Under the pieces are notes generated by a model that saw only the letters and a program-made list of their open reading frames with translations, was not told the origin of the DNA and ran no database searches. Position numbers and translations under genes: made by a program. A stretch of DNA of 64,000 nt from Escherichia phage outra: sequence record MN850645.1, one strand, 5' to 3'. Shown here piece by piece: positions 15,126 to 64,000 of this stretch. Within the stretch, counting starts at the first letter, position 1, and each line of letters begins with the position of its first letter.

Positions 15126-15842
15126 TTATTTCAGTTTGTAAACAATTACATTTAAACCTTTGTTTACTAGAGTTTCTTCGATCATAAGTTTTACAATACT
15201 CCAAGAACCTCCAGCCAAACCACAACCAAGCATTGGTAAACCTACAATTTTACCGCCTGAAGATACAACATCGTCTCCCATACTATCTAACGCATTGTAG
15301 ATAGCTTCATAATTCAGGTCACGCTTACCTTCCTCACGACGACTATAACCATATTGTCCATATAAATTATAAATTGTCAAATTGTTTTCTATATATTTGG
15401 TAAACGTACCTAATTTTTTATAATCACCATGTTTAGTGGCACAATCTGCTTTAAACGCACCAGGCCACTTGCTTTTAATTTTTGGTGCAATACCACTACC
15501 CATAGTGCAAAAACAGTTACAGCAGTGTGCTATAGCGTCTATATCGCCTCTCTCGGCTGCTGCTAAAAGATCACCGTATACCTCAATGATACCTGCCGGA
15601 TAACTTGTTACAATTTCATCTTCCCAATACATTTTCTCTACACCACCGATCAGTGCAAAGTTTTGTGTAATGCGATCATCAATATAGTTAAGACCTGAAA
15701 CATACACAGCATATTCATCCTGTGCTGTAATACCTTGTACACGAATTCTTAAGACACCATCTTTATCTGTTGCTACACGCCCAAAATCTTTTTCTGTAAT
15801 ATTGGTGATAGGATCTCCGAAAGTCATTACTTTATTAGACAT
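15126..15842 (-). CDS. macro-domain protein (ADP-ribose binding/processing) with unknown N-terminal extension
   Basis: IAHCCNCFCTMGSGIA and GLPMLGCGLAGG resemble macro-domain glycine-rich loops; start placed at Met just after upstream stop. Confidence 0.55.
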   Translation of the reverse strand: MSNKVMTFGDPITNITEKDFGRVATDKDGVLRIRVQGITAQDEYAVYVSGLNYIDDRITQNFALIGGVEKMYWEDEIVTSYPAGIIEVYGDLLAAAERGDIDAIAHCCNCFCTMGSGIAPKIKSKWPGAFKADCATKHGDYKKLGTFTKYIENNLTIYNLYGQYGYSRREEGKRDLNYEAIYNALDSMGDDVVSSGGKIVGLPMLGCGLAGGSWSIVKLMIEETLVNKGLNVIVYKLK

Positions 15843-16692
15843 AATAATCCCCTTTAACATTAGATTTGTTGATAATGTTGCTTTCAAAAAATTGACGTAG
15901 GAAATCAAAGTTCTCTTTATATTTTTCAATGTTATTGTAGCCTTCTGCAAGGCAACCAAAGAACAGTTGTTCTACATAATACAAAGGAAGCTGTGAAAGT
16001 GCAATTTTAAAATCAACTTCGCTTTGACTCATTAGATACTTAATAGGACGAACCAAACATTTAGCATCAGTTTCTTGTTTAATCATTTTAATAAAAGCTG
16101 CCAGGTTATTGATATAGTTGAAGTTAAGTGCAGCTTCGGTATTGGCTTCTGTACCTTCATACTTTGCAAAGTACAGGAAAAACGTATCGTTTTCAACACC
16201 TTCTTTGTCTAAAATTTCAATAAGTTTTTCTTCGTGCGTTCCTGTAATATTAACATCATCAATGAAAATCAGAGTTTTATTACCCCAGAAATCACGATTG
16301 ATAGAGAAAGTGTCACCATCGATCAAAGCCTTACGATCTTCTTTGCTAAGAAATCCATAATCATTGATATAGCTCACTTTACGATGAACGATATCCCACT
16401 CCACTGCTTTACCTCCTTTGATAGAGATTAGGTAGTTGAGGTGATCTACAAAATGTTCAGATAACACTGTAGCTGCATTTTTCACATAGTTATATGGAGA
16501 TGGAATAACAACAAAACTTTCATTTACCAGTCGTTCTTCATACTTGGAAAAGAAACTTTCAGCCAGAATGCGCCCCATTCTTTTTGCTGCCTGGTTACTA
16601 CCAAACTTTAGCTTGGAATAATCTGCAATGTTAAATTTTGCTTCCTTCAGGTTAGTAAAAGTATTAGCAAAATGTTGAATTTGATTACGCAT
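15835..16692 (-). CDS. phosphoribosyltransferase (PRTase type I)-like protein
   Basis: 285 aa; TLIFIDDVNITGTH resembles the PRPP-binding motif. Confidence 0.5.
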   Translation of the reverse strand: MRNQIQHFANTFTNLKEAKFNIADYSKLKFGSNQAAKRMGRILAESFFSKYEERLVNESFVVIPSPYNYVKNAATVLSEHFVDHLNYLISIKGGKAVEWDIVHRKVSYINDYGFLSKEDRKALIDGDTFSINRDFWGNKTLIFIDDVNITGTHEEKLIEILDKEGVENDTFFLYFAKYEGTEANTEAALNFNYINNLAAFIKMIKQETDAKCLVRPIKYLMSQSEVDFKIALSQLPLYYVEQLFFGCLAEGYNNIEKYKENFDFLRQFFESNIINKSNVKGDYYV

Positions 16693-17341
16693 TAATAAGT
16701 TCCTCTTTTTTAAGTTTAGCCAACAAGTCTTCTGGATTAATAATATGACAGAACTTCATCCCTATGTCAACAGCTTTTCCATCATAGATCAAACTATCTC
16801 CAACGTGTAAGATCTCCTCTGGTGCGAGATCAAACGTTACCATTTCATCAAAAGAGAGTTTAAAAAACCTAGGATCTGGTTTACACAAGCAAAACTCGTC
16901 AGAAAAATGCATAAAGTCGAATGGTAATTTTGTCAAGCCAGAATATACAGCTAAAAAACTACCAGGTACAAAATTAGTATTGCTTTTAATACTCAAAGAA
17001 TAGGTTGAACTTAGCTCTTCCAACTTCTTGCAAAGTTCAGGGTTTAATGTTGGAGGATGTTTTATAAACATTGCTAAACAGTCTCTTTTTAACCCATCTA
17101 CTTTATCAAGATCAATGTTCAAACGAGCAGAAAGTGTTTCCCAAGCATTTCTAGATGTTCCACAAATGCCTTTTTCTGCTTTTAAATCCAGGAGAGTTTT
17201 TACCTCTTTATATACGGTAGCTGCTTCTACCTCAGAACAAGAGGCATACTCGGCAATAACCTTGTTGCGTTCTTCTGCATACAAAGGATTAGCAGTAATA
17301 AGAGTATTCCATACATCAAAAGAAATATGCTTAACAGTCAT
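16685..17341 (-). CDS. HAD-superfamily hydrolase-like protein
   Basis: ISFDVWNTL (motif I-like) and HVGDSLIYDGKAVDIG (motif IV-like); start at Met with GGAGG RBS. Confidence 0.5.
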   Translation of the reverse strand: MTVKHISFDVWNTLITANPLYAEERNKVIAEYASCSEVEAATVYKEVKTLLDLKAEKGICGTSRNAWETLSARLNIDLDKVDGLKRDCLAMFIKHPPTLNPELCKKLEELSSTYSLSIKSNTNFVPGSFLAVYSGLTKLPFDFMHFSDEFCLCKPDPRFFKLSFDEMVTFDLAPEEILHVGDSLIYDGKAVDIGMKFCHIINPEDLLAKLKKEELINA

Positions 17342-17748: not shown

Positions 17749-18909
17749 TTAGTAAGAACGACCACCAAACACATACTCTGTGTAGTTTTTACGTTCTTTG
17801 TTTTTAATAACAACTTCAATGTTGTTACCTTTATCATCGGTGAACATAAAGTGATAACCGTCACCGCCCATTGTACGGATGTGTTTTTCATCATACGTCA
17901 GCAAGATACGGTCTACACCCCAGTAGTAGTCACCTTCTTCGTCTTTATCTTCTACGGTAACGACTCCTTCCATTTCAGGAAGATGCTCTTCTCCTAGCTT
18001 ATGGTCTACAGCTACAACATAACGATTACCGCTAAACAAACCCTGTGCTGTCATACCGTCAATATCGGTATCTGCCGAAACATCTCCTGTACGATCTACA
18101 CCGTTAACTTTCAGAAGTTTAACTTCTTTTGCAGCATAGCGGTGTTCAGTAATACTGATACCCATTAATGCAAGTGCATCAGAGAATTTGTCATTAGGGT
18201 AACGGTTAAGTTCTTCTACTAATGACTGAACAATATCAAAGTTCAAGTCCACGGACAGATTATAAAGCGTTTCAAAATCTGGTAAAAAGGCTTTGTTCTC
18301 CAGATTTTTAGCCAGATAATCATCCATAGTAGCTTTAGGTAGTTTCTTATAGCTAAAGCTGTAGAAAATACGGCTAGGGCGATTACGCAAAAATTCTGAT
18401 ACATAACCATCATTTTTAGTCAATACAAACAGCTTGTCATAGCCACCAACACCATCCAGCAGGGTAAGCAAACCATCCTGTGCATCTTTTTCAGCATACA
18501 GTTTATCAAATTCATCGATCATAATCATCACAGGTTGTGTGATTTTAGACATAAAATTGATAAAGCCTTCACCATTAAAAGCACTACCGATAGAAATAGT
18601 AGGAATACCCATTTCACGAAGAGCAGAAGACAGCATTTTAGCTTGCAAAGTTTTACCGCTACCCTTCGTACCCTCAAGGAGAACACCTGTGTTTTTACCT
18701 TTGCGGCTAAGGAACGTCTTGATAATACGTTCTGATTTATCATCAGTATCACCGTATGTTACTGAAGGGACTTCCATATCGTTTTTAGGATACAGGAAGA
18801 ACTCGCCACTTTGAGTAACACCTACACCAAAAGTTCCTGCTGGAATTTCTTCAATATCTGTACCAGACTTCTGACGCAGGAAGATTTGATTGCCGAATAC
18901 TGTAAACAT
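17749..18909 (-). CDS. AAA+ family ATPase, paralog A
   Basis: 386 aa; Walker A GTKGSGKT, Walker B IMIDEFDKL; paralog of 33477..34604; GGAG RBS. Confidence 0.75.
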   Translation of the reverse strand: MFTVFGNQIFLRQKSGTDIEEIPAGTFGVGVTQSGEFFLYPKNDMEVPSVTYGDTDDKSERIIKTFLSRKGKNTGVLLEGTKGSGKTLQAKMLSSALREMGIPTISIGSAFNGEGFINFMSKITQPVMIMIDEFDKLYAEKDAQDGLLTLLDGVGGYDKLFVLTKNDGYVSEFLRNRPSRIFYSFSYKKLPKATMDDYLAKNLENKAFLPDFETLYNLSVDLNFDIVQSLVEELNRYPNDKFSDALALMGISITEHRYAAKEVKLLKVNGVDRTGDVSADTDIDGMTAQGLFSGNRYVVAVDHKLGEEHLPEMEGVVTVEDKDEEGDYYWGVDRILLTYDEKHIRTMGGDGYHFMFTDDKGNNIEVVIKNKERKNYTEYVFGGRSY

Positions 18910-33476: not shown

Positions 33477-34604
33477 ATGAAATACACGATTTATGGTGAT
33501 ATTGTAAGTGTAAATAAAGATATGGGCGTGGAATCTAACTATCTTCCACCTGGATTCTATACTGTTAGTCGTGATCCCCTTGGCAATTATTTTTTAAGCC
33601 GTGGTAATCTGACAGGTGTACCTGATGTTCTGTATGGTGAAACAGAAAAACGAGCAAATCACGTTATCCGTACATTCCATCGCCGGAGTGCACAAGGTAA
33701 AAATACAGGATTGCTTCTGACAGGAACTAAGGGTAGTGGTAAAACTATGTTAGCCAAACTCATTAGTCGTGACCTTGTAGAAGAAGGTATTCCAACTATT
33801 ATGGTTACTCAAGCCTACAGCGATGCTAATTTCATTGAACTTATTAGCAAGATCACCGACAAAGCAGTGATTATTTTTGACGAGTTTGATAAAGTGTATG
33901 AGAAGAAACAAGATCAAGAAGCACTTCTCACTTTGTTAGATGGTACTGGCAGTGGTAATAAACTGTTTATTCTAACTAAAAACAGTGGCTTTATCTCTGA
34001 ATTCTTTCTAAATCGTCCTAGTCGTGTGTTTTATAATTTTAATTATGATAAAATCTCACTAGAAACTATGATTGACTATTTAGATAAAAACCTGGATAAC
34101 AAAGCACACTTTGATAATTTCCAAAGGCTTTGGGATGTAAGTTTAGAGTTGTCCTTTGATGTGATCCAAGGTATAGTAGAAGAACTTAATTTCTACCCTG
34201 ATTTATCCTTTAAAGAATGCATCTCTATGATGGGCGTTTCTTTGGGTGGTGGTAATAAGTGGGATATCAGCAGCGTTGTTATTAATGGGAAACTTCAGAA
34301 AGTTAGCTGGGTATCTAGTTGGCATAACTTCACACCTGCAATCTTTTTAGGTGGCTCGTGCACACTAGACGTGTACTTGTCATCTCCAAGTGATGCAGAC
34401 TCTAAAGAAGCCCTTGCTAATAGCTCTTACGTGGTTTTTGATGATGAAGGAGATGCTCGAATTCCATTGAATGCGACAAAAATGAAAGCAGATCTTATTA
34501 CAGGCGGTAAAATCGTTGTGTTTAGTGATGATCCAGAAGATTCTTTCCGTATTGTTCTGGAACCAACTATCACCAATGGTGCAACTTTGGCAAGCGTGTT
34601 TTAA
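33477..34604 (+). CDS. AAA+ family ATPase, paralog B
   Basis: 375 aa; Walker A GTKGSGKT, Walker B IIFDEFDKV; LLTLLDG.G...LF.LTKN.G..SEF..NRPSR.FY.F.Y shared with 17749..18909. Confidence 0.75.
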   Translation: MKYTIYGDIVSVNKDMGVESNYLPPGFYTVSRDPLGNYFLSRGNLTGVPDVLYGETEKRANHVIRTFHRRSAQGKNTGLLLTGTKGSGKTMLAKLISRDLVEEGIPTIMVTQAYSDANFIELISKITDKAVIIFDEFDKVYEKKQDQEALLTLLDGTGSGNKLFILTKNSGFISEFFLNRPSRVFYNFNYDKISLETMIDYLDKNLDNKAHFDNFQRLWDVSLELSFDVIQGIVEELNFYPDLSFKECISMMGVSLGGGNKWDISSVVINGKLQKVSWVSSWHNFTPAIFLGGSCTLDVYLSSPSDADSKEALANSSYVVFDDEGDARIPLNATKMKADLITGGKIVVFSDDPEDSFRIVLEPTITNGATLASVF

Positions 34605-35851: not shown

Positions 35852-36403
35852 ATGCGGATTACTGATAAGTATGTGTTCTTCTTCTCGGCAAAAGATGAAT
35901 TTAGCAACTGGTATCTATCATCTTTTATTGAACCTTTAGCTCCCAAGTATAATAATTCTATTACAAGTTCTGTTGAATTTACTTGTGTGGAACAATATAT
36001 GATGTGGAGAAAAGCATGTTTGTTTTATGATTACAACATTGCATCTTCTATTTTAACCGGAGATCTAAGATATACAGGAGAAAAAGAACAGGCATATTAT
36101 AAGCGACTAGGTAGATTAGTTAAAGATTACGATGAAGCTACTTGGACTTCTTTACGGGAGAAGATTGTCAAGCGTGGTTTGTATCTTAAATACACACAAA
36201 ATGAAGATCTCAAAAATAAACTTATCGCTTACGCAGATAAGGAGTTCGTAGAGGCAAGCCCTTATGATTCTATTTATGGTATCAAAATGGGAATGTGGGA
36301 TCGTGATGTGGAAAATAAGGACTGTTGGAAAGGACAAAATCTTTTAGGAAAATGGCATACAGACCTTGCTGTTTATCTAAAAGCACAATCTGATATTTCC
36401 TGA
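35852..36403 (+). CDS. NADAR (YbiA-like, DUF1768) family protein
   Basis: 183 aa; FFFSAKDEFSNWYLS...FTCVEQYMMWRKA and GQNLLGKWHTDLAVYL fit NADAR conserved blocks; AAGGAG RBS. Confidence 0.55.
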   Translation: MRITDKYVFFFSAKDEFSNWYLSSFIEPLAPKYNNSITSSVEFTCVEQYMMWRKACLFYDYNIASSILTGDLRYTGEKEQAYYKRLGRLVKDYDEATWTSLREKIVKRGLYLKYTQNEDLKNKLIAYADKEFVEASPYDSIYGIKMGMWDRDVENKDCWKGQNLLGKWHTDLAVYLKAQSDIS

Positions 36404-39784: not shown

Positions 39785-39812
39785 TTGACACCTGAAATCA
39801 GTAAGCTATAAT
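39785..39812 (+). promoter_or_regulatory. consensus sigma70 promoter (TTGACA-16-TATAAT), second of a tandem pair (first TTGACA near 39707)
   Basis: Read directly. Confidence 0.6.
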
Positions 39813-40610: not shown

Positions 40611-40670
40611 TTGACAATGGTTTCTAATAACGTATAATACTTACATCGAGAGCGGGAACACTTCCCGCCT
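40611..40670 (+). promoter_or_regulatory. early promoter plus stem-loop cassette (TTGACA-16-TATAAT, hairpin GAGCGGGAACACTTCCCGCCTC); second TTGACA/TAAAAT promoter with hairpin at about 40497-40562
   Basis: Read directly. Confidence 0.6.
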
Positions 40671-61740: not shown

Positions 61741-61775
61741 AAAGCCCCTAGAAGCGATTCTAGGGGCTTTTGTTT
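61741..61775 (+). terminator. Rho-independent terminator at convergent strand switch
   Basis: aaagcccctagaagcgattctaggggcttttgtttg. Confidence 0.65.
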
Positions 61776-61837: not shown

Positions 61838-62095
61838 TTAAGAATGCATAAAATCTTCTTCAGGGCAGGTTGAGAGATAAGAGATGCACGTTGGGACAAC
61901 AACAACATTATCTTTAAGGTTTGCAACCAAGCCTTTTGTAATTCCAGCCACTGCCCCGTTAATATCTGCTTGACGGATACCAAAACCTTGTTGTGCGGAT
62001 AGATAACAAAATCCCTCACCTTTCTGTTGATTATTATTGAAGTAATAAACGTAGTGCATCATAAAATGGTCTTTAACGATTTGTTCTGTGGTCAT
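61838..62095 (-). CDS. hypothetical protein
   Basis: 85 aa; GGAG RBS. Confidence 0.4.
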   Translation of the reverse strand: MTTEQIVKDHFMMHYVYYFNNNQQKGEGFCYLSAQQGFGIRQADINGAVAGITKGLVANLKDNVVVVPTCISYLSTCPEEDFMHS

Positions 62096-62139
62096 AATAT
62101 TCTCCTATAAGAAAAGGGGCTTTCGCCCCCTTGGTCAAG

Positions 62140-62952
62140 TTACTTAGTCAAATGATCTTCTATCATTTTTATGAAAGCAGGATTGCTAAAAGCCTCTGCT
62201 GCCTTTTCTCTATAAACAAAGACTCCTCTATCTTCGTAAAGAAGAGTTTCTTCGTAATTAATTCCTGGGTTAACAACAATCATTTTTGTACCCATATTAA
62301 GTGCAGGAAATAATTCCCAATTAAAATTGATAACTTGGTTTGAACATCCTACTACAACAACCAAATCTTGCATGGTCAGAGTATCAAACAAGTAAGCCAT
62401 ATCTGCATACAAAGGTGCAGCCTCGCCAAAAAATACAACATTAGGCTTCACCCAGTTATAATCATCTATGTTTATACTATTGTAACCAATGTCTACCAGT
62501 GTTTTGTAATCTCCAGGATGCATACGGTAAACTACTTCAGGAAGATACCCGTGCACGTGAATAACAGAATCCCTGTCCACACCTGCTCGCTCTAGTAGAT
62601 CATCAACGTTTGTTGTCAAGTTTACTACTTGGTTAGGATATTCCTTAAACCACTTTGCTATTTGAATATGTGCAGCATTAGGTTGTACATCTTTAAGCTC
62701 AACACGTCTTTTGTTATAAAATTCGTGTGTTTTGGCATACAAATCCATACCGTTCTCGTCTACACCACCGACCACTGGAAGATCTGGAGATGTTCTAACA
62801 CGATAACCTGCTTGGAAAGCTCCAATATCGCAGACCTCTTCTAAATCATATTCTTCCCATAAGGCACGACCACTATCTGTGTCTGTTCGGAATGTTCGAA
62901 TCCCACTGTCTGCACTTAAACCTGCGCCACTAACAAAAATTACTCTTCGCAT
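62140..62952 (-). CDS. Sir2-family (sirtuin-like) NAD-dependent protein
   Basis: 270 aa; VIFVSGAGLSADSGIRTFR (GAG..SG.P.FR), NLTTNVDDLLERAG, IHVHG, KPNVVFFGE, LVVVVGCS; terminator hairpin downstream at about 62112-62132. Confidence 0.75.
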   Translation of the reverse strand: MRRVIFVSGAGLSADSGIRTFRTDTDSGRALWEEYDLEEVCDIGAFQAGYRVRTSPDLPVVGGVDENGMDLYAKTHEFYNKRRVELKDVQPNAAHIQIAKWFKEYPNQVVNLTTNVDDLLERAGVDRDSVIHVHGYLPEVVYRMHPGDYKTLVDIGYNSINIDDYNWVKPNVVFFGEAAPLYADMAYLFDTLTMQDLVVVVGCSNQVINFNWELFPALNMGTKMIVVNPGINYEETLLYEDRGVFVYREKAAEAFSNPAFIKMIEDHLTK

Positions 62953-63509
62953 TCAATATCCTCTTCGTAATCATCATCCCAAGAAGATGCGTCGTAACGC
63001 TCTTCCTCTTCGAAATCCCAATTAATTTCTACTCCAAAATCTAAAAACAATTTAACAATGTTTTCTGTAGAATAGTATTTATCATAAGCGTTAGCTAGTT
63101 CCCAATACTTGTCACTCAATTTTTTATAAATAGGATCATTATAGTCATAATCTACTTTATAACCATAGTCATACATCTCTTGTTCAGCTTTAAGCATAGC
63201 TTCTGGTGTAAGAAGATTAGGGAACGGACGATTTCTTTCTTTTAACTTAGAAGCGATCCAGTTTGCAACATTCGCCACTTCACCATCTCGATTATCACCT
63301 AAACAACTTGCATAATCTCCATCTTGGTAAGTGCCTAAATCCCCACTAACTTCATGTACAATACTTGAATACGATCCACACGTTTCACAATCTGAAAAAG
63401 TGTCTACTGTTGTAATATCAATAGATAAAACTGGTAAAGCCATAGCTTCTTTCACACAAGCCTCCTCATATAATAACATATCATCAAAACCCATATATCC
63501 TCCACACAA
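62940..63509 (-). CDS. hypothetical acidic protein
   Basis: 189 aa with D/E/Y-rich C-terminus. Confidence 0.45.
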   Translation of the reverse strand: MCGGYMGFDDMLLYEEACVKEAMALPVLSIDITTVDTFSDCETCGSYSSIVHEVSGDLGTYQDGDYASCLGDNRDGEVANVANWIASKLKERNRPFPNLLTPEAMLKAEQEMYDYGYKVDYDYNDPIYKKLSDKYWELANAYDKYYSTENIVKLFLDFGVEINWDFEEEERYDASSWDDDYEEDIECEE

Positions 63510-63548
63510 ATAAAGCCCCTGATTGGGGCTTTGGTTAAGTTTTACGGA

Positions 63549-63968
63549 TTATACCAGACTTTTAAGGTACTTGTCAAGGGCTTCTTGATCACCTTGACAA
63601 ACATAGCAACGGAAATCTTGAGCCGAGGGTTCTTTGTCCTCGTCCCAATCCCAATAAACAGTACCTTTATAACGTGAACCTGGGAACTCGAAATATGCTG
63701 TATGAGTGATATGATGTGGGCCACCCCAAAACTGTATAAAAGTAAATTGAGGATATGCTGCTTTAACTGTATTTTCAAACCAAGTTTTACGATCTAATGC
63801 TTCGTTTATAAAATAAGCATGGCGTTCCATTTCATCCCAGTTTTTCCAAACGCATTTTTCATCCAGAGAAAAAACAAAATCTTCACTGTTGAATTCATCT
63901 GTATCTTCCAAAATATCATAATCATGTGCACTAGGTATCCACCATCCAGCTTCTAATAGTGCTTTCAC
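63549..63968 (-). CDS. hypothetical protein
   Basis: 139 aa; terminator hairpin downstream at about 63512-63533. Confidence 0.45.
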   Translation of the reverse strand: MKALLEAGWWIPSAHDYDILEDTDEFNSEDFVFSLDEKCVWKNWDEMERHAYFINEALDRKTWFENTVKAAYPQFTFIQFWGGPHHITHTAYFEFPGSRYKGTVYWDWDEDKEPSAQDFRCYVCQGDQEALDKYLKSLV

Positions 63969-64000
63969 GGGTACAAAACCTTTTTCAGCATATTGATCAA

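What the first reader, a model, noticed from the sequence alone, without database searches (positions are those of the whole stretch)
62140..62952. Sir2-like (sirtuin) gene in a lytic-phage context
The ORF carries the core sirtuin motifs in the right order (GAGLSADSGIRTFR, TTNVDD, HG, PNVVFFGE, VVVVG). Bacterial Sir2 domains are known as NAD-consuming defence effectors and as partners of macro domains in protein ADP-ribosylation; a phage-encoded copy could modify host or phage proteins, manipulate NAD pools, or serve in superinfection exclusion. It is flanked by its own terminator hairpins and sits at a strand-switch boundary.
Basis: partly seen in the sequence, partly recalled or inferred. 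Interest (0 to 1): 0.75.

Follow-up and report, generated by a model that had tools for sequence, protein, structure and literature searches.

The report
Known phage sirtuin, zinc-less CobB-like clade
The ORF is a real, apparently active sirtuin gene, but it belongs to a phage sirtuin family already annotated in about a thousand phage genomes, and what it modifies (proteins or damaged RNA) has never been tested.

Summary
Window 62140..62952 (-) encodes a 270-aa Sir2-family protein (Pfam SIR2 E=2.5e-22; PHROG 2162 full length, E=5e-105). The AlphaFold model (pLDDT 91) is closest to E. coli CobB and SIRT5.

The window is a phi92-like Justusliebigvirus, 99.1% identical to phage Paula. The gene is Phi92_gp038, "putative Sir2-like transferase". 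Homologues occur in 982 phage records (T5-like, rV5-like, phAPEC8-like, KVP40-like, jumbo), so this is already known.

Across 173 clade members the catalytic His134, Asn115, Asp117 and the SIRT5/CobB-type Tyr79 are invariant, and Arg82 is kept in 172. The four zinc cysteines are missing, which was already noted for Vibrio phages in 2016, and TQNID has become TTNVDD.

It does not look like a defence NADase (no PADLOC hit, no sensor domain). It is not a SirTM: the catalytic His is kept and the macro gene lies 46 kb away.

In sister lineages the orthologue sits inside RNA-repair cassettes (Rnl1, cREC, kinase, phosphoesterase, HAD_SAK, Nudix). This reproduces a 2022 prediction that it removes RNA 2'-phosphates like Tpt1. 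In this phage that cassette lies about 31 kb away.

I put the Tpt1-like role at about 0.4 and protein deacylase at about 0.35. No experiment on any phage sirtuin was found.

The parts
62140..62952 (-). sir2 CDS (270 aa), orthologue of Phi92_gp038; phage sirtuin clade PHROG 2162
62551..62553 (-). codon of catalytic His134 (HG motif), invariant in 173/173 clade members
62704..62718 (-). codons of Y79-N-K-R82-R83, the class III (SIRT5 Y102/R105, CobB Y92/R95) anion-binding YxxR motif
   Evidence: Y79 aligns with the Y92A position of the 6RXS CobB mutant. Y79 173/173, R82 172/173, R83 173/173.
62449..62547 (-). residues 136-168, the beta module that stands where the zinc ribbon is in canonical sirtuins; it has no Cys ligands
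   Evidence: 171/173 clade members have 0-1 Cys here; strands 135-143 and 151-154, pLDDT 94-96.
62740..62814 (-). residues 47-71, a variable insertion in the helical module, present in about half of the clade
   Evidence: lengths are bimodal, 3-4 aa in 83 sequences and 23-30 aa in 90.
62114..62132 (-). intrinsic terminator directly downstream of the sir2 stop codon
   Evidence: annotated as Paula_terminator_005
62940..63494 (-). gp039-like CDS (184 aa from the ATG at 63494; pI 4.05; conserved C13, C36, C39, C64; acidic tail). Its last 13 nt overlap the sir2 start. Function unknown.
63512..63532 (-). G+C-rich hairpin between gp041 and gp039: either a terminator for upstream transcripts or a 5' stem-loop. 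The stem is kept through compensatory changes in phAPEC8-like relatives.
63548..63577 (-). perfect sigma-70 consensus (TTGACA-18-TG-TATAAT), overlapping the last codons and stop codon of gp041; a candidate promoter for gp039-sir2
   Evidence: only 3 perfect matches in 64 kb against 0.12 expected; conserved in relatives.
63549..64000 (-). 3' part of the gp041-like CDS (phrog_8514), which runs off the window end. Homologues lie next to sir2 in three lineages. Function unknown.
61838..62095 (-). gp037-like CDS (85 aa, phrog_15991), last gene of the minus-strand block
61741..61770 (.). bidirectional terminator (13-bp stem) at the true convergence point of the plus- and minus-strand gene blocks
   Evidence: Paula terminators 006/007; GC-skew sign change

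Best explanation
The ORF encodes a stand-alone, catalytically intact sirtuin. It belongs to the phage-specific, zinc-less offshoot of the CobB/SIRT5 (class III) branch: PHROG 2162, orthologue of Phi92_gp038.

Shown here: family membership, the predicted fold, invariance of the NAD-binding and catalytic residues, loss of the zinc ligands, and the structure of the transcription unit.

Inferred from sirtuin chemistry: the enzyme binds NAD+, expels nicotinamide and attaches ADP-ribose to an anionic acceptor held by the invariant Y79-x-x-R82-R83 pocket. His134 then activates the ribose 2''-OH for the second step.

Inferred from the gene neighbourhoods of orthologues and from the 2022 prediction of Iyer et al.: the acceptor is most likely a 2'-phosphate on cleaved or re-ligated RNA. 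The enzyme would then work like Tpt1/KptA, with which it shares no ancestry. It would remove the 2'-phosphate as ADP-ribose 1'',2''-cyclic phosphate, providing the NAD-dependent step of the phage's tRNA-repair toolkit (cREC cyclic-phosphate processing, phosphoesterase, Rnl1 ligase, P-loop kinase, MazG).

In this phage that toolkit lies about 31 kb away. sir2 is instead co-transcribed and probably translationally coupled with an acidic protein of unknown function, gp039.
For: Identity and fold:
- Pfam SIR2 E=2.5e-22; PHROG 2162 over the full length, E=5e-105.
- AF2 model pLDDT 91, pTM 0.87.
- Best structural matches are CobB 1S5P/6RX* (TM 0.71/0.83), then Af1 and SIRT5.

Active-site integrity in 173 clade sequences:
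- G9-A10-G11 172/173; S16, F21, R22, N115, D117, H134, G135, E177 and N228 in all 173.
- Y79 173/173, R82 172/173, R83 173/173. Y79 aligns with CobB Y92.

RNA-repair neighbourhoods of orthologues, checked independently here:
- rV5-like: operon Rnl1 (PF09511), cREC (PF20274), Sir2, MazG-like, with a divergently transcribed P-loop kinase and a calcineurin-type phosphoesterase.
- 13 Vequintavirinae-type IMG/VR loci carry some or all of these genes within about 5 kb of sir2, mostly within 3 kb.
- About 30 T5-like loci carry HAD_SAK_2 (PF18143, 'Swiss Army Knife RNA repair') 19-460 bp downstream.
- Jumbo phage JP4: Sir2 next to Nudix.
- A 608-kb megaphage contig: Rnl1 upstream of Sir2. A 279-kb jumbo contig: RlaP and Thg1 within 4 kb.

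The phi92-like genome keeps the whole cassette elsewhere: cREC, then phosphoesterase-Rnl1-kinase, then DNA ligase and a MazG-like gene.

KptA/Tpt1 homologues occur in only 98 phage records, mostly jumbo phages of 250-500 kb plus some 130-kb Clostridioides phages. None of the listed records is a T5-, rV5- or phi92-like phage, so the listed distributions are complementary.

The published prediction is in PMC9503650, section 3.7.3.
Against: - No biochemical or genetic test of any phage sirtuin was found.
- In this window sir2 is not linked to RNA-repair genes. No seed family was found within 8 kb in phi92/phAPEC8-like loci.
- The protein is acidic (pI 4.77, net charge -15; clade median pI 5.05), which is unusual for an RNA-binding enzyme.
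- The closest characterised relatives are all protein deacylases, and the YxxR motif is equally the signature of succinyl- or malonyl-lysine recognition.
- Few T5-like records seem to have an Rnl1 homologue: Salmonella phages give 14 Rnl1 hits against 289 Sir2 hits.
- The same RNA-ligase cassette sits beside NAD-salvage genes (Prs-like and Nampt-like) in Pseudomonas and phi92-like phages. The linkage may therefore reflect a general accessory or NAD island rather than a shared pathway.
- The canonical T4 Pnkp/Rnl1 repair route produces no 2'-phosphate (established knowledge).
Confidence: 0.4

Rival explanations
1. It is an NAD+-dependent protein lysine deacylase that works like CobB/SIRT5. It would prefer acidic acyl groups (succinyl, malonyl) and also remove acetyl groups. 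Its targets would be host or phage proteins, for example reactivation of acetyl-CoA synthetase or reversal of non-enzymatic acylation during infection.
For: - The nearest sequence and structure relatives are bona fide deacylases: CobB, Af1/Af2, SIRT5, Sir2Tm.
- The NCBIfam best hit is 'NAD-dependent protein deacylase'.
- All deacylation residues are intact, including His134, the FGE loop and F21.
- The YxxR motif matches the SIRT5/CobB desuccinylase signature (the PDB titles).
- A beta module still stands where the zinc ribbon is, modelled with pLDDT above 90.
- Skliros et al. 2016 modelled the Vibrio phage homologue, found the acetyl-lysine tunnel conserved and proposed Acs deacetylation.
Against: - The zinc ligands are absent across the clade. 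The zinc module is reported as required for deacetylation by canonical sirtuins (PMC12700824).
- The peptide-binding 'VYPAA' segment is replaced by the clade-specific INFNW, and the Gln of TQNID by Thr.
- Scores lie far below the NCBIfam CobB cut-offs: 106 against 243 bits and 86 against 320.
- The recurrent RNA-repair neighbourhoods in at least five lineages are not explained by this reading.
Confidence: 0.35
2. It is a protein (or DNA) mono-ADP-ribosyltransferase that modifies host or phage macromolecules. The phage macro or NADAR proteins might act as erasers.
For: - Some sirtuins do ADP-ribosylate (SirTM; review text).
- The same window encodes a Macro-domain protein (15129-15860) and a NADAR protein (35852-36400).
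- GenBank names the phi92 orthologue a 'Sir2-like transferase'.
Against: - SirTMs carry Gln in place of the catalytic His, keep the zinc domain and lie next to their macro gene.
- Here His134 is invariant, the zinc ligands are lost, and the macro gene is 46 kb away in a different cluster with PRTase_3 and HAD.
- No macro gene is adjacent to the orthologue in any of the 52 loci examined or in the annotated relatives.
Confidence: 0.08
3. It is an NAD+ hydrolase that lowers or reshapes the host NAD pool, for host takeover or for exclusion of superinfecting phages.
For: - Zinc-less sirtuins such as ThsA, DSR2, SIR2-HerA and FAM118 are NADases.
- The KVP40 homologue was originally described as an NAD hydrolase (quoted).
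Against: - It belongs to Pfam SIR2, not to the defence-type families. PADLOC gives only a 13.8-bit fragment match.
- No defence Sir2 appears among the top 50 structural matches.
- It has no sensor or oligomerisation domain and is a 270-aa stand-alone protein.
- The same phage lineage encodes a Prs-like/Nampt-like pair that resembles the NAD-reconstitution pathway NARP1. A constitutive NADase would work against it.
- A virulent phage needs NAD for its own replication (established knowledge).
Confidence: 0.07

Closest known systems
Phage sirtuin clade (PHROG 2162; Phi92_gp038, the T5-like 'Sir2-like protein', the rV5 and KVP40 Sir2/CobB); the 'distinct clade of viral sirtuins' of Iyer, Burroughs, Anantharaman and Aravind 2022
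   Same: - Full-length match, E=5e-105.
- 99.6% identical to the annotated protein of phage ALITA.
- Same clade signatures: no zinc Cys, T-T-N-V-D-D, G-C-S-N-x-V-I-N-F-N-W, FYNxRR.
   Different: The neighbourhood differs from the three configurations described in 2022. Here sir2 is paired with gp039 and gp041 (both of unknown function) and is separated by about 31 kb from the RNA-repair cassette.
E. coli CobB / human SIRT5 (class III sirtuin deacylases)
   Same: - Best sequence and structure match.
- Rossmann core, catalytic His, Asn and Asp, FGE loop and the YxxR acidic-acyl pocket are all present.
   Different: - 29-33% identity.
- Below the NCBIfam CobB cut-offs.
- No zinc-binding cysteines; Gln of TQNID replaced by Thr; VYPAA replaced by INFNW.
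- A 24-aa insertion in the helical module.
Tpt1/KptA RNA 2'-phosphotransferase
   Same: The proposed analogy is functional only. Both use NAD+, transfer ADP-ribose to an anionic oxygen, and cyclise through the ribose 2''-OH. Both have similar partner genes in phages (2H or cREC, RNA ligase, Nudix). Their distributions among the listed phage records are complementary.
   Different: The fold is unrelated: Tpt1 has an ART fold and this protein has a sirtuin Rossmann fold. No 2'-phosphotransferase activity has been shown for any sirtuin.
Defence-associated Sir2 NADases (ThsA, DSR1/2, SIR2-HerA, SIR2-APAZ; the SIR2_2 type)
   Same: Sirtuin superfamily, no zinc module, consumes NAD+.
   Different: No PADLOC match, no sensor domains, and the fold is closer to the deacylases. 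It is encoded by a virulent phage rather than a host defence island.
SirTM (class M, macro-linked ADP-ribosylating sirtuins)
   Same: A microbial sirtuin with a proposed non-deacylase activity.
   Different: SirTM has Gln in place of the catalytic His, retains the zinc domain and is operonic with a macro gene. None of these holds here.

Membership tests
Sirtuin / Sir2 family (Pfam PF02146) | Profile match above the curated threshold | tested here: met
   80.1 bits against a cut-off of 24, E=2.5e-22
Sirtuin / Sir2 family (Pfam PF02146) | Rossmann-fold large domain plus small domain; structural similarity to solved sirtuins | tested here: met
   AF2 pLDDT 91. Foldseek top 50 are all sirtuins; best is CobB, E=2.6e-17, TM 0.71/0.83.
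Sirtuin / Sir2 family (Pfam PF02146) | NAD-binding and catalytic residues: GAGxS...SGIxxFR, Asn and Asp of the QNID motif, catalytic His of HG, FGE loop, distal Asn | tested here: met
   S16, F21, R22, N115, D117, H134, G135, E177 and N228 are invariant in 173 sequences; G9, A10 and G11 are kept in 172.
Sirtuin / Sir2 family (Pfam PF02146) | Gln of the TQNID motif | tested here: not met
   Thr114 in 171/173. Only two jumbo-phage members keep Gln.
Sirtuin / Sir2 family (Pfam PF02146) | Four-cysteine zinc-binding module (CxxC...CxxC) in the small domain | tested here: not met
   There is no Cys in residues 136-168, and 171/173 clade members have 0-1 Cys there. The beta module itself is still predicted.
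Class III sirtuin deacylases (CobB/SIRT5) | YxxR motif that recognises acidic acyl groups | tested here: met
   Y79/R82 align with CobB Y92/R95. Y79 173/173, R82 172/173.
Class III sirtuin deacylases (CobB/SIRT5) | Score above the NCBIfam CobB/deacylase family cut-offs | tested here: not met
   106 bits against 243 (NF001753); 86 against 320 (NF040867)
Class III sirtuin deacylases (CobB/SIRT5) | NAD-dependent lysine deacylase activity | not testable with these tools
   Needs enzyme assays. No published assay of a phage homologue was found.
Phage sirtuin clade (PHROG 2162; viral sirtuin clade of Iyer et al. 2022) | Full-length match to the phage family profile and the clade-specific motifs | tested here: met
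   E=5e-105 over residues 1-269; motifs shared with T5-like, rV5-like, nt-1 and JP4 homologues
Phage sirtuin clade (PHROG 2162; viral sirtuin clade of Iyer et al. 2022) | Neighbourhood of RNA-end-processing or RNA-repair genes | tested here: not met
   None within 8 kb in this window or in phi92/phAPEC8-like loci. The feature is met in Vequintavirinae, T5-like, jumbo and megaphage orthologues.
Defence-associated Sir2 NADases (ThsA, DSR, SIR2-HerA, SIR2-APAZ) | Match to defence-system profiles, and fusion or operon with a sensor or partner (SLOG, HerA, pAgo and others) | tested here: not met
   PADLOC gives only PDC-S65, 13.8 bits over 37 residues. The protein is a stand-alone 270 aa, and its neighbours have no such domains.
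SirTM (class M ADP-ribosylating sirtuins) | Catalytic His replaced by Gln, with an adjacent macro-domain gene | tested here: not met
   His134 is invariant. The Macro gene is at 15129-15860, 46 kb away. The SirTM features are taken from PMC4518038.
Tpt1/KptA RNA 2'-phosphotransferase | ART-fold KptA/Tpt1 homology | tested here: not met
   The protein has a sirtuin fold. E. coli KptA homologues in phages are a different gene found in other phage groups. Only a functional analogy is proposed.
Tpt1/KptA RNA 2'-phosphotransferase | NAD-dependent removal of an RNA 2'-phosphate, releasing ADP-ribose 1'',2''-cyclic phosphate | not testable with these tools
   Requires a biochemical assay.

The most novel reading that the evidence does not exclude
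The phage sirtuin clade, including this gene, does not act on proteins. It would be a non-homologous replacement of Tpt1/KptA: a sirtuin-fold enzyme that uses NAD+ to strip 2'-phosphates from damaged RNA, or otherwise transfers ADP-ribose to RNA phosphate ends. This would help the phage undo host RNase-based immunity. It would be the first sirtuin shown to act on nucleic acid. The idea was published as a computational prediction in 2022, so the novelty would lie in demonstrating it.
Probability: 0.4. Interest if true: 0.7.

Novelty: already known. Interest (0 to 1): 0.3.

Why it matters
As a sequence finding it adds little. The gene is annotated in about a thousand phage genomes, its loss of zinc ligands was noted in 2016, and its RNA-repair association was published in 2022.

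What still matters is that the biochemical activity of a very widespread phage enzyme has never been measured. It occurs in T5-, rV5-, phi92-, KVP40-like and jumbo phages. Two concrete hypotheses can be separated with simple assays.

If the RNA 2'-phosphate hypothesis is right, sirtuin chemistry would extend to nucleic acids and an NAD-dependent step would be added to phage counter-defence against anticodon nucleases. If the deacylase hypothesis is right, many virulent phages would be shown to rewrite the host acyl-proteome.

The phi92-like arrangement offers a convenient genetic handle: a two-gene gp039-sir2 unit, possibly with its own consensus promoter, detached from the repair cassette.

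Tried and rejected
1. Defence-NADase reading. PADLOC gave no meaningful hit and the structural neighbours are deacylases.
2. SirTM or macro-partner reading. The catalytic His is retained and the macro gene is 46 kb away.
4. gp039's four conserved Cys supplying a zinc module in trans. This is speculative. The T5-, rV5- and KVP40-like clade members lack both the zinc Cys and gp039.
5. gp041 as a 2H phosphoesterase, suggested by the HHITHT string. The His residues are not conserved in homologues, and there are no Pfam or PDB profile hits.
6. Horizontal-transfer signature. GC content of sir2 (0.38-0.41) is within the local range.
7. Literature search for experimental work on phage sirtuins. Five searches found only genomic annotation and predictions.
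8. The word-indexed homologue search for gp039 returned only three proteins, which limits the depth of that model.
Full report
**1. The observation**

The ORF listing gives an ATG-initiated ORF of 270 aa at 62140..62952 on the minus strand. A GAGGA Shine-Dalgarno sequence precedes the ATG, read directly from the sequence.

The family assignment is far beyond chance:
- Pfam SIR2, 80.1 bits against a gathering cut-off of 24.
- PHROG 2162 'Sir2 (NAD-dependent deacetylase)' over residues 1-269, E=5e-105.
- E. coli CobB (1S5P), E=9e-19, followed by SIRT5 and archaeal and Thermotoga sirtuins.

An AlphaFold2 model built on a 41-sequence alignment has mean pLDDT 91 and pTM 0.87. Its 50 best Foldseek matches in the PDB are all sirtuins, led by CobB (TM 0.71/0.83), then Af1 and SIRT5.

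**2. Where the window comes from, and how well known the gene is**

The last 3 kb of the window are 99.1% identical to Escherichia phage Paula and 97-98% identical to dozens of other Justusliebigvirus genomes. These are phi92-like virulent myoviruses of the Stephanstirmvirinae. The gene is the orthologue of Phi92_gp038, annotated 'putative Sir2-like transferase'.

tblastn finds homologues in 982 phage records, 911 of them near full length. They include:
- phi92- and phAPEC8-like phages (65-99% identity);
- T5-like Demerecviridae (52-62%);
- Mydovirus and rV5-like Vequintavirinae (47-57%);
- KVP40-like Vibrio phages (37-40%);
- jumbo phages (30-37%).

Nearly all are already labelled Sir2 or NAD-dependent deacetylase. 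The large protein database holds 1164 clusters at E<=1e-5.

**3. Anatomy of the protein**

I aligned the query with 120 cluster representatives and 52 IMG/VR loci, 173 sequences in all.
- Invariant: the catalytic His134 with Gly135, Asn115 and Asp117, Ser16, Phe21-Arg22, Glu177 of the FGE loop, and Asn228. Gly9-Ala10-Gly11 are kept in 172 of 173.
- Tyr79 is invariant and Arg82 is kept in 172/173.
- The profile-to-PDB alignment places Tyr79 on the Y92A position of the CobB 6RXS mutant. This is the Y-x-x-R motif of class III sirtuins (CobB Y92/R95, SIRT5 Y102/R105), which recognises acidic acyl groups (PDB titles; the motif's role is established knowledge).

The clade departs from canonical sirtuins in four ways:
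- The CobB zinc cysteines align with a Cys-free, variable segment (residues 136-168). 171 of 173 members have 0-1 Cys there. A beta hairpin is still predicted at this place with pLDDT 94-96.
- TQNID has become T-T-N-V-D-D. Thr114 is found in 171/173.
- GTSxxVYPAA has become G-C-S-N-x-V-I-N-F-N-W.
- About half of the clade, including this protein, carries a 23-30 residue insertion at positions 47-71.

The two members that keep Gln also keep 4-6 Cys. I presume these are the two most divergent sequences in the set, L061 and L062, which come from jumbo-phage and megaphage contigs. The loss of zinc ligands is not a new observation. Skliros et al. 2016 reported it for KVP40-like Vibrio phage Sir2/CobB and also listed T5 as carrying the gene (PMC5107563).

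**4. Local genetic structure**

sir2 is the last-but-one gene of a roughly 36-kb minus-strand block of nucleotide-metabolism and accessory genes: thyA, nrdAB, PhoH, dTDP-sugar genes, methylases.

- The upstream gene, gp039 (184 aa, pI 4.05), ends 13 nt inside sir2, so the two are co-transcribed and probably translationally coupled. In Paula a single G-to-T change truncates gp039 by 8 codons.
- A terminator follows the sir2 stop directly (62114-62132).
- One further small gene (61838..62095) precedes the 13-bp-stem bidirectional terminator at 61741-61770. That terminator is the real point where the two strands converge.
- Upstream of gp039 there is a G+C-rich hairpin (63512-63532). Its stem is kept through compensatory changes in phAPEC8-like relatives.
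- Immediately 5' of the hairpin is one of only three perfect sigma-70 consensus matches in the whole 64-kb window, where 0.12 are expected by chance. This match overlaps the last codons and the stop codon of gp041. It recurs as TTGACA-18-TGGTATAGT in relatives.

Whether this promoter fires, and whether the hairpin terminates or stabilises transcripts, cannot be decided here.

**5. The neighbours**

gp039 (phrog_9509), gp041 (phrog_8514) and gp037 (phrog_15991) have no assignable function.
- gp041 homologues lie next to sir2 in two further, more distant contig types (L049, L057). They have no conserved 2H-type His motifs and give no Pfam or PDB profile hits.

**6. Evidence from orthologues elsewhere**

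I re-derived the neighbourhoods independently.
- rV5-like phage JeffSchatz: sir2 lies in an operon of Rnl1-type RNA ligase (PF09511), cREC 'cyclic-phosphate processing receiver domain' (PF20274), Sir2 and a MazG-like pyrophosphohydrolase. A P-loop polynucleotide-kinase-like protein and a calcineurin-type phosphoesterase are transcribed divergently, and a tRNA cluster is nearby.
- 52 IMG/VR loci: 13 Vequintavirinae-type loci have some or all of these genes within about 5 kb of sir2, mostly within 3 kb. About 30 T5-like loci have an HAD_SAK_2 'Swiss Army Knife RNA repair' phosphatase (PF18143) 19-460 bp downstream. The five phi92/phAPEC8-like loci have none of them (25, 33).
- Jumbo phage JP4: a Nudix hydrolase is adjacent.
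- A 608-kb megaphage contig: Rnl1 lies just upstream. A 279-kb jumbo contig: RlaP and Thg1, both RNA-repair families, lie within 4 kb.

This reproduces and slightly extends the analysis of Iyer et al. 2022. They proposed that most viral sirtuins form a distinct clade acting like KptA/Tpt1 to remove RNA 2'-phosphates (PMC9503650).

The phi92-like arrangement is a fourth configuration that they did not list. The same cassette (cREC, then phosphoesterase-Rnl1-kinase, then DNA ligase and a MazG-like gene) is present but lies about 31 kb from sir2 and outside this window.

KptA homologues occur in only 98 phage records. Most are jumbo phages of 250-500 kb, plus some 130-kb Clostridioides phages. 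None of the listed records belongs to the groups that carry the Sir2 clade. This fits a functional replacement but does not prove one.

**7. Weighing the mechanisms**

Family, fold, intact NAD and catalytic site, and loss of zinc ligands are shown. That the enzyme consumes NAD+ and transfers ADP-ribose to an acceptor is inferred from the invariant residues and from sirtuin chemistry.

For the acceptor, two readings are nearly balanced.

- *RNA 2'-phosphate (Tpt1-like), about 0.40.* This reading explains the recurrent RNA-repair contexts. It also gives the YxxR(R) anion pocket and the catalytic His plausible roles: binding the phosphate, and activating the 2''-OH to form the cyclic phosphate product.
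  Several points weaken it:
  - the protein is acidic (pI 4.77; clade median 5.05);
  - the linkage is absent in this phage;
  - few T5-like records appear to carry Rnl1;
  - the same RNA-ligase cassette sits beside Prs-like and Nampt-like NAD genes in Pseudomonas and phi92-like phages. The linkage may therefore reflect a general accessory or NAD island.
- *Protein deacylase, about 0.35.* This reading rests on the closest characterised relatives and on the desuccinylase-type YxxR motif. It is weakened by the lost zinc ligands, since the zinc module is reported as required for canonical deacetylation (PMC12700824). The altered peptide-binding segment and the sub-threshold CobB family scores also count against it.

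Two further readings are unlikely.
- *NADase or NAD-pool manipulation, about 0.07.* There is no PADLOC hit, and the phage lineage appears to rebuild NAD with a NARP1-like pair.
- *SirTM-like protein ADP-ribosylation, about 0.08.*

**8. Novelty and verdict**

No experimental characterisation of any phage sirtuin turned up in five full-text searches. The only expression data found are for a Vibrio phage homologue, whose transcript is high at 20 min after infection.

The finding is a correct identification of a gene family that is already annotated and already discussed. The remaining value is that a very common phage enzyme still lacks a measured activity, and two sharply different hypotheses can be told apart at the bench.

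Noticed in passing
window 15129-17341 (minus strand): A three-gene cluster: a Macro-domain protein (15129-15860, PF01661), a ComF-like PRTase_3 (15838-16692, PF15610, E=1e-41) and a HAD hydrolase (16688-17341). It looks like an ADP-ribose or nucleotide-processing module, 46 kb from sir2.
   Followed up: partly
window 35852-36400 (plus strand): A NADAR (YbiA-like) domain protein, PF08719 E=2e-36. It is a candidate ADP-ribose-removing or anti-defence enzyme. With Sir2 and Macro, it gives this phage a rich NAD/ADP-ribose toolkit.
   Followed up: partly
window 39785-39812 and 40611-40638 (plus strand): The other two perfect sigma-70 consensus promoters in the window (3 found, 0.12 expected by chance). 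They probably head the plus-strand block of small early genes.
   Followed up: no
window 63512-63577 (minus strand): The order is unusual: a perfect consensus promoter followed about 15 nt later by a terminator-like hairpin, then the gp039 start. The promoter hexamers overlap the last codons and stop codon of gp041. It is unclear whether the hairpin terminates, attenuates or stabilises transcripts.
   Followed up: partly
window 33477-34601 (plus) and 18151-18906 (minus): An FtsH-like protease gene, and a second locus encoding a 42%-identical paralogous segment.
   Followed up: no
window 62940-63494 (gp039): gp039 has four Cys conserved with its 52%-identical homologue (C13, C36-x-x-C39, C64) and a very acidic C-terminal tail (pI 4.05). 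It may bind a metal, next to a sirtuin that has lost its own zinc ligands. In phage Paula a point mutation truncates it by 8 codons.
   Followed up: partly
L011:14342-17040 (phage PaulScherrer, outside the window): A Prs-like and Nampt-like gene pair resembling the NAD-reconstitution pathway NARP1. It lies about 3 kb from the RNA-repair cassette and next to the tRNA cluster. In Pseudomonas phage IQPL the same pair directly follows RNA ligase and kinase (L064).
   Followed up: partly
GenBank records MG0656xx ('Campylobacter phage' A150, C12, C14 and others): Records labelled as Campylobacter jejuni phages are 96-99% identical to E. coli rV5-like and phi92-like phage genes. The host labels look doubtful, or the samples were mixed.
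   Followed up: no
L061:7284-12642 (IMG/VR jumbo contig, 279 kb): A more canonical sirtuin is flanked by a nucleoside 2-deoxyribosyltransferase-like gene (PF15891), RlaP (PF10127) and Thg1 (PF04446). I presume it is one of the two sequences in the set that keep Gln and the Cys-rich segment. This is another NAD and RNA-repair island.
   Followed up: partly
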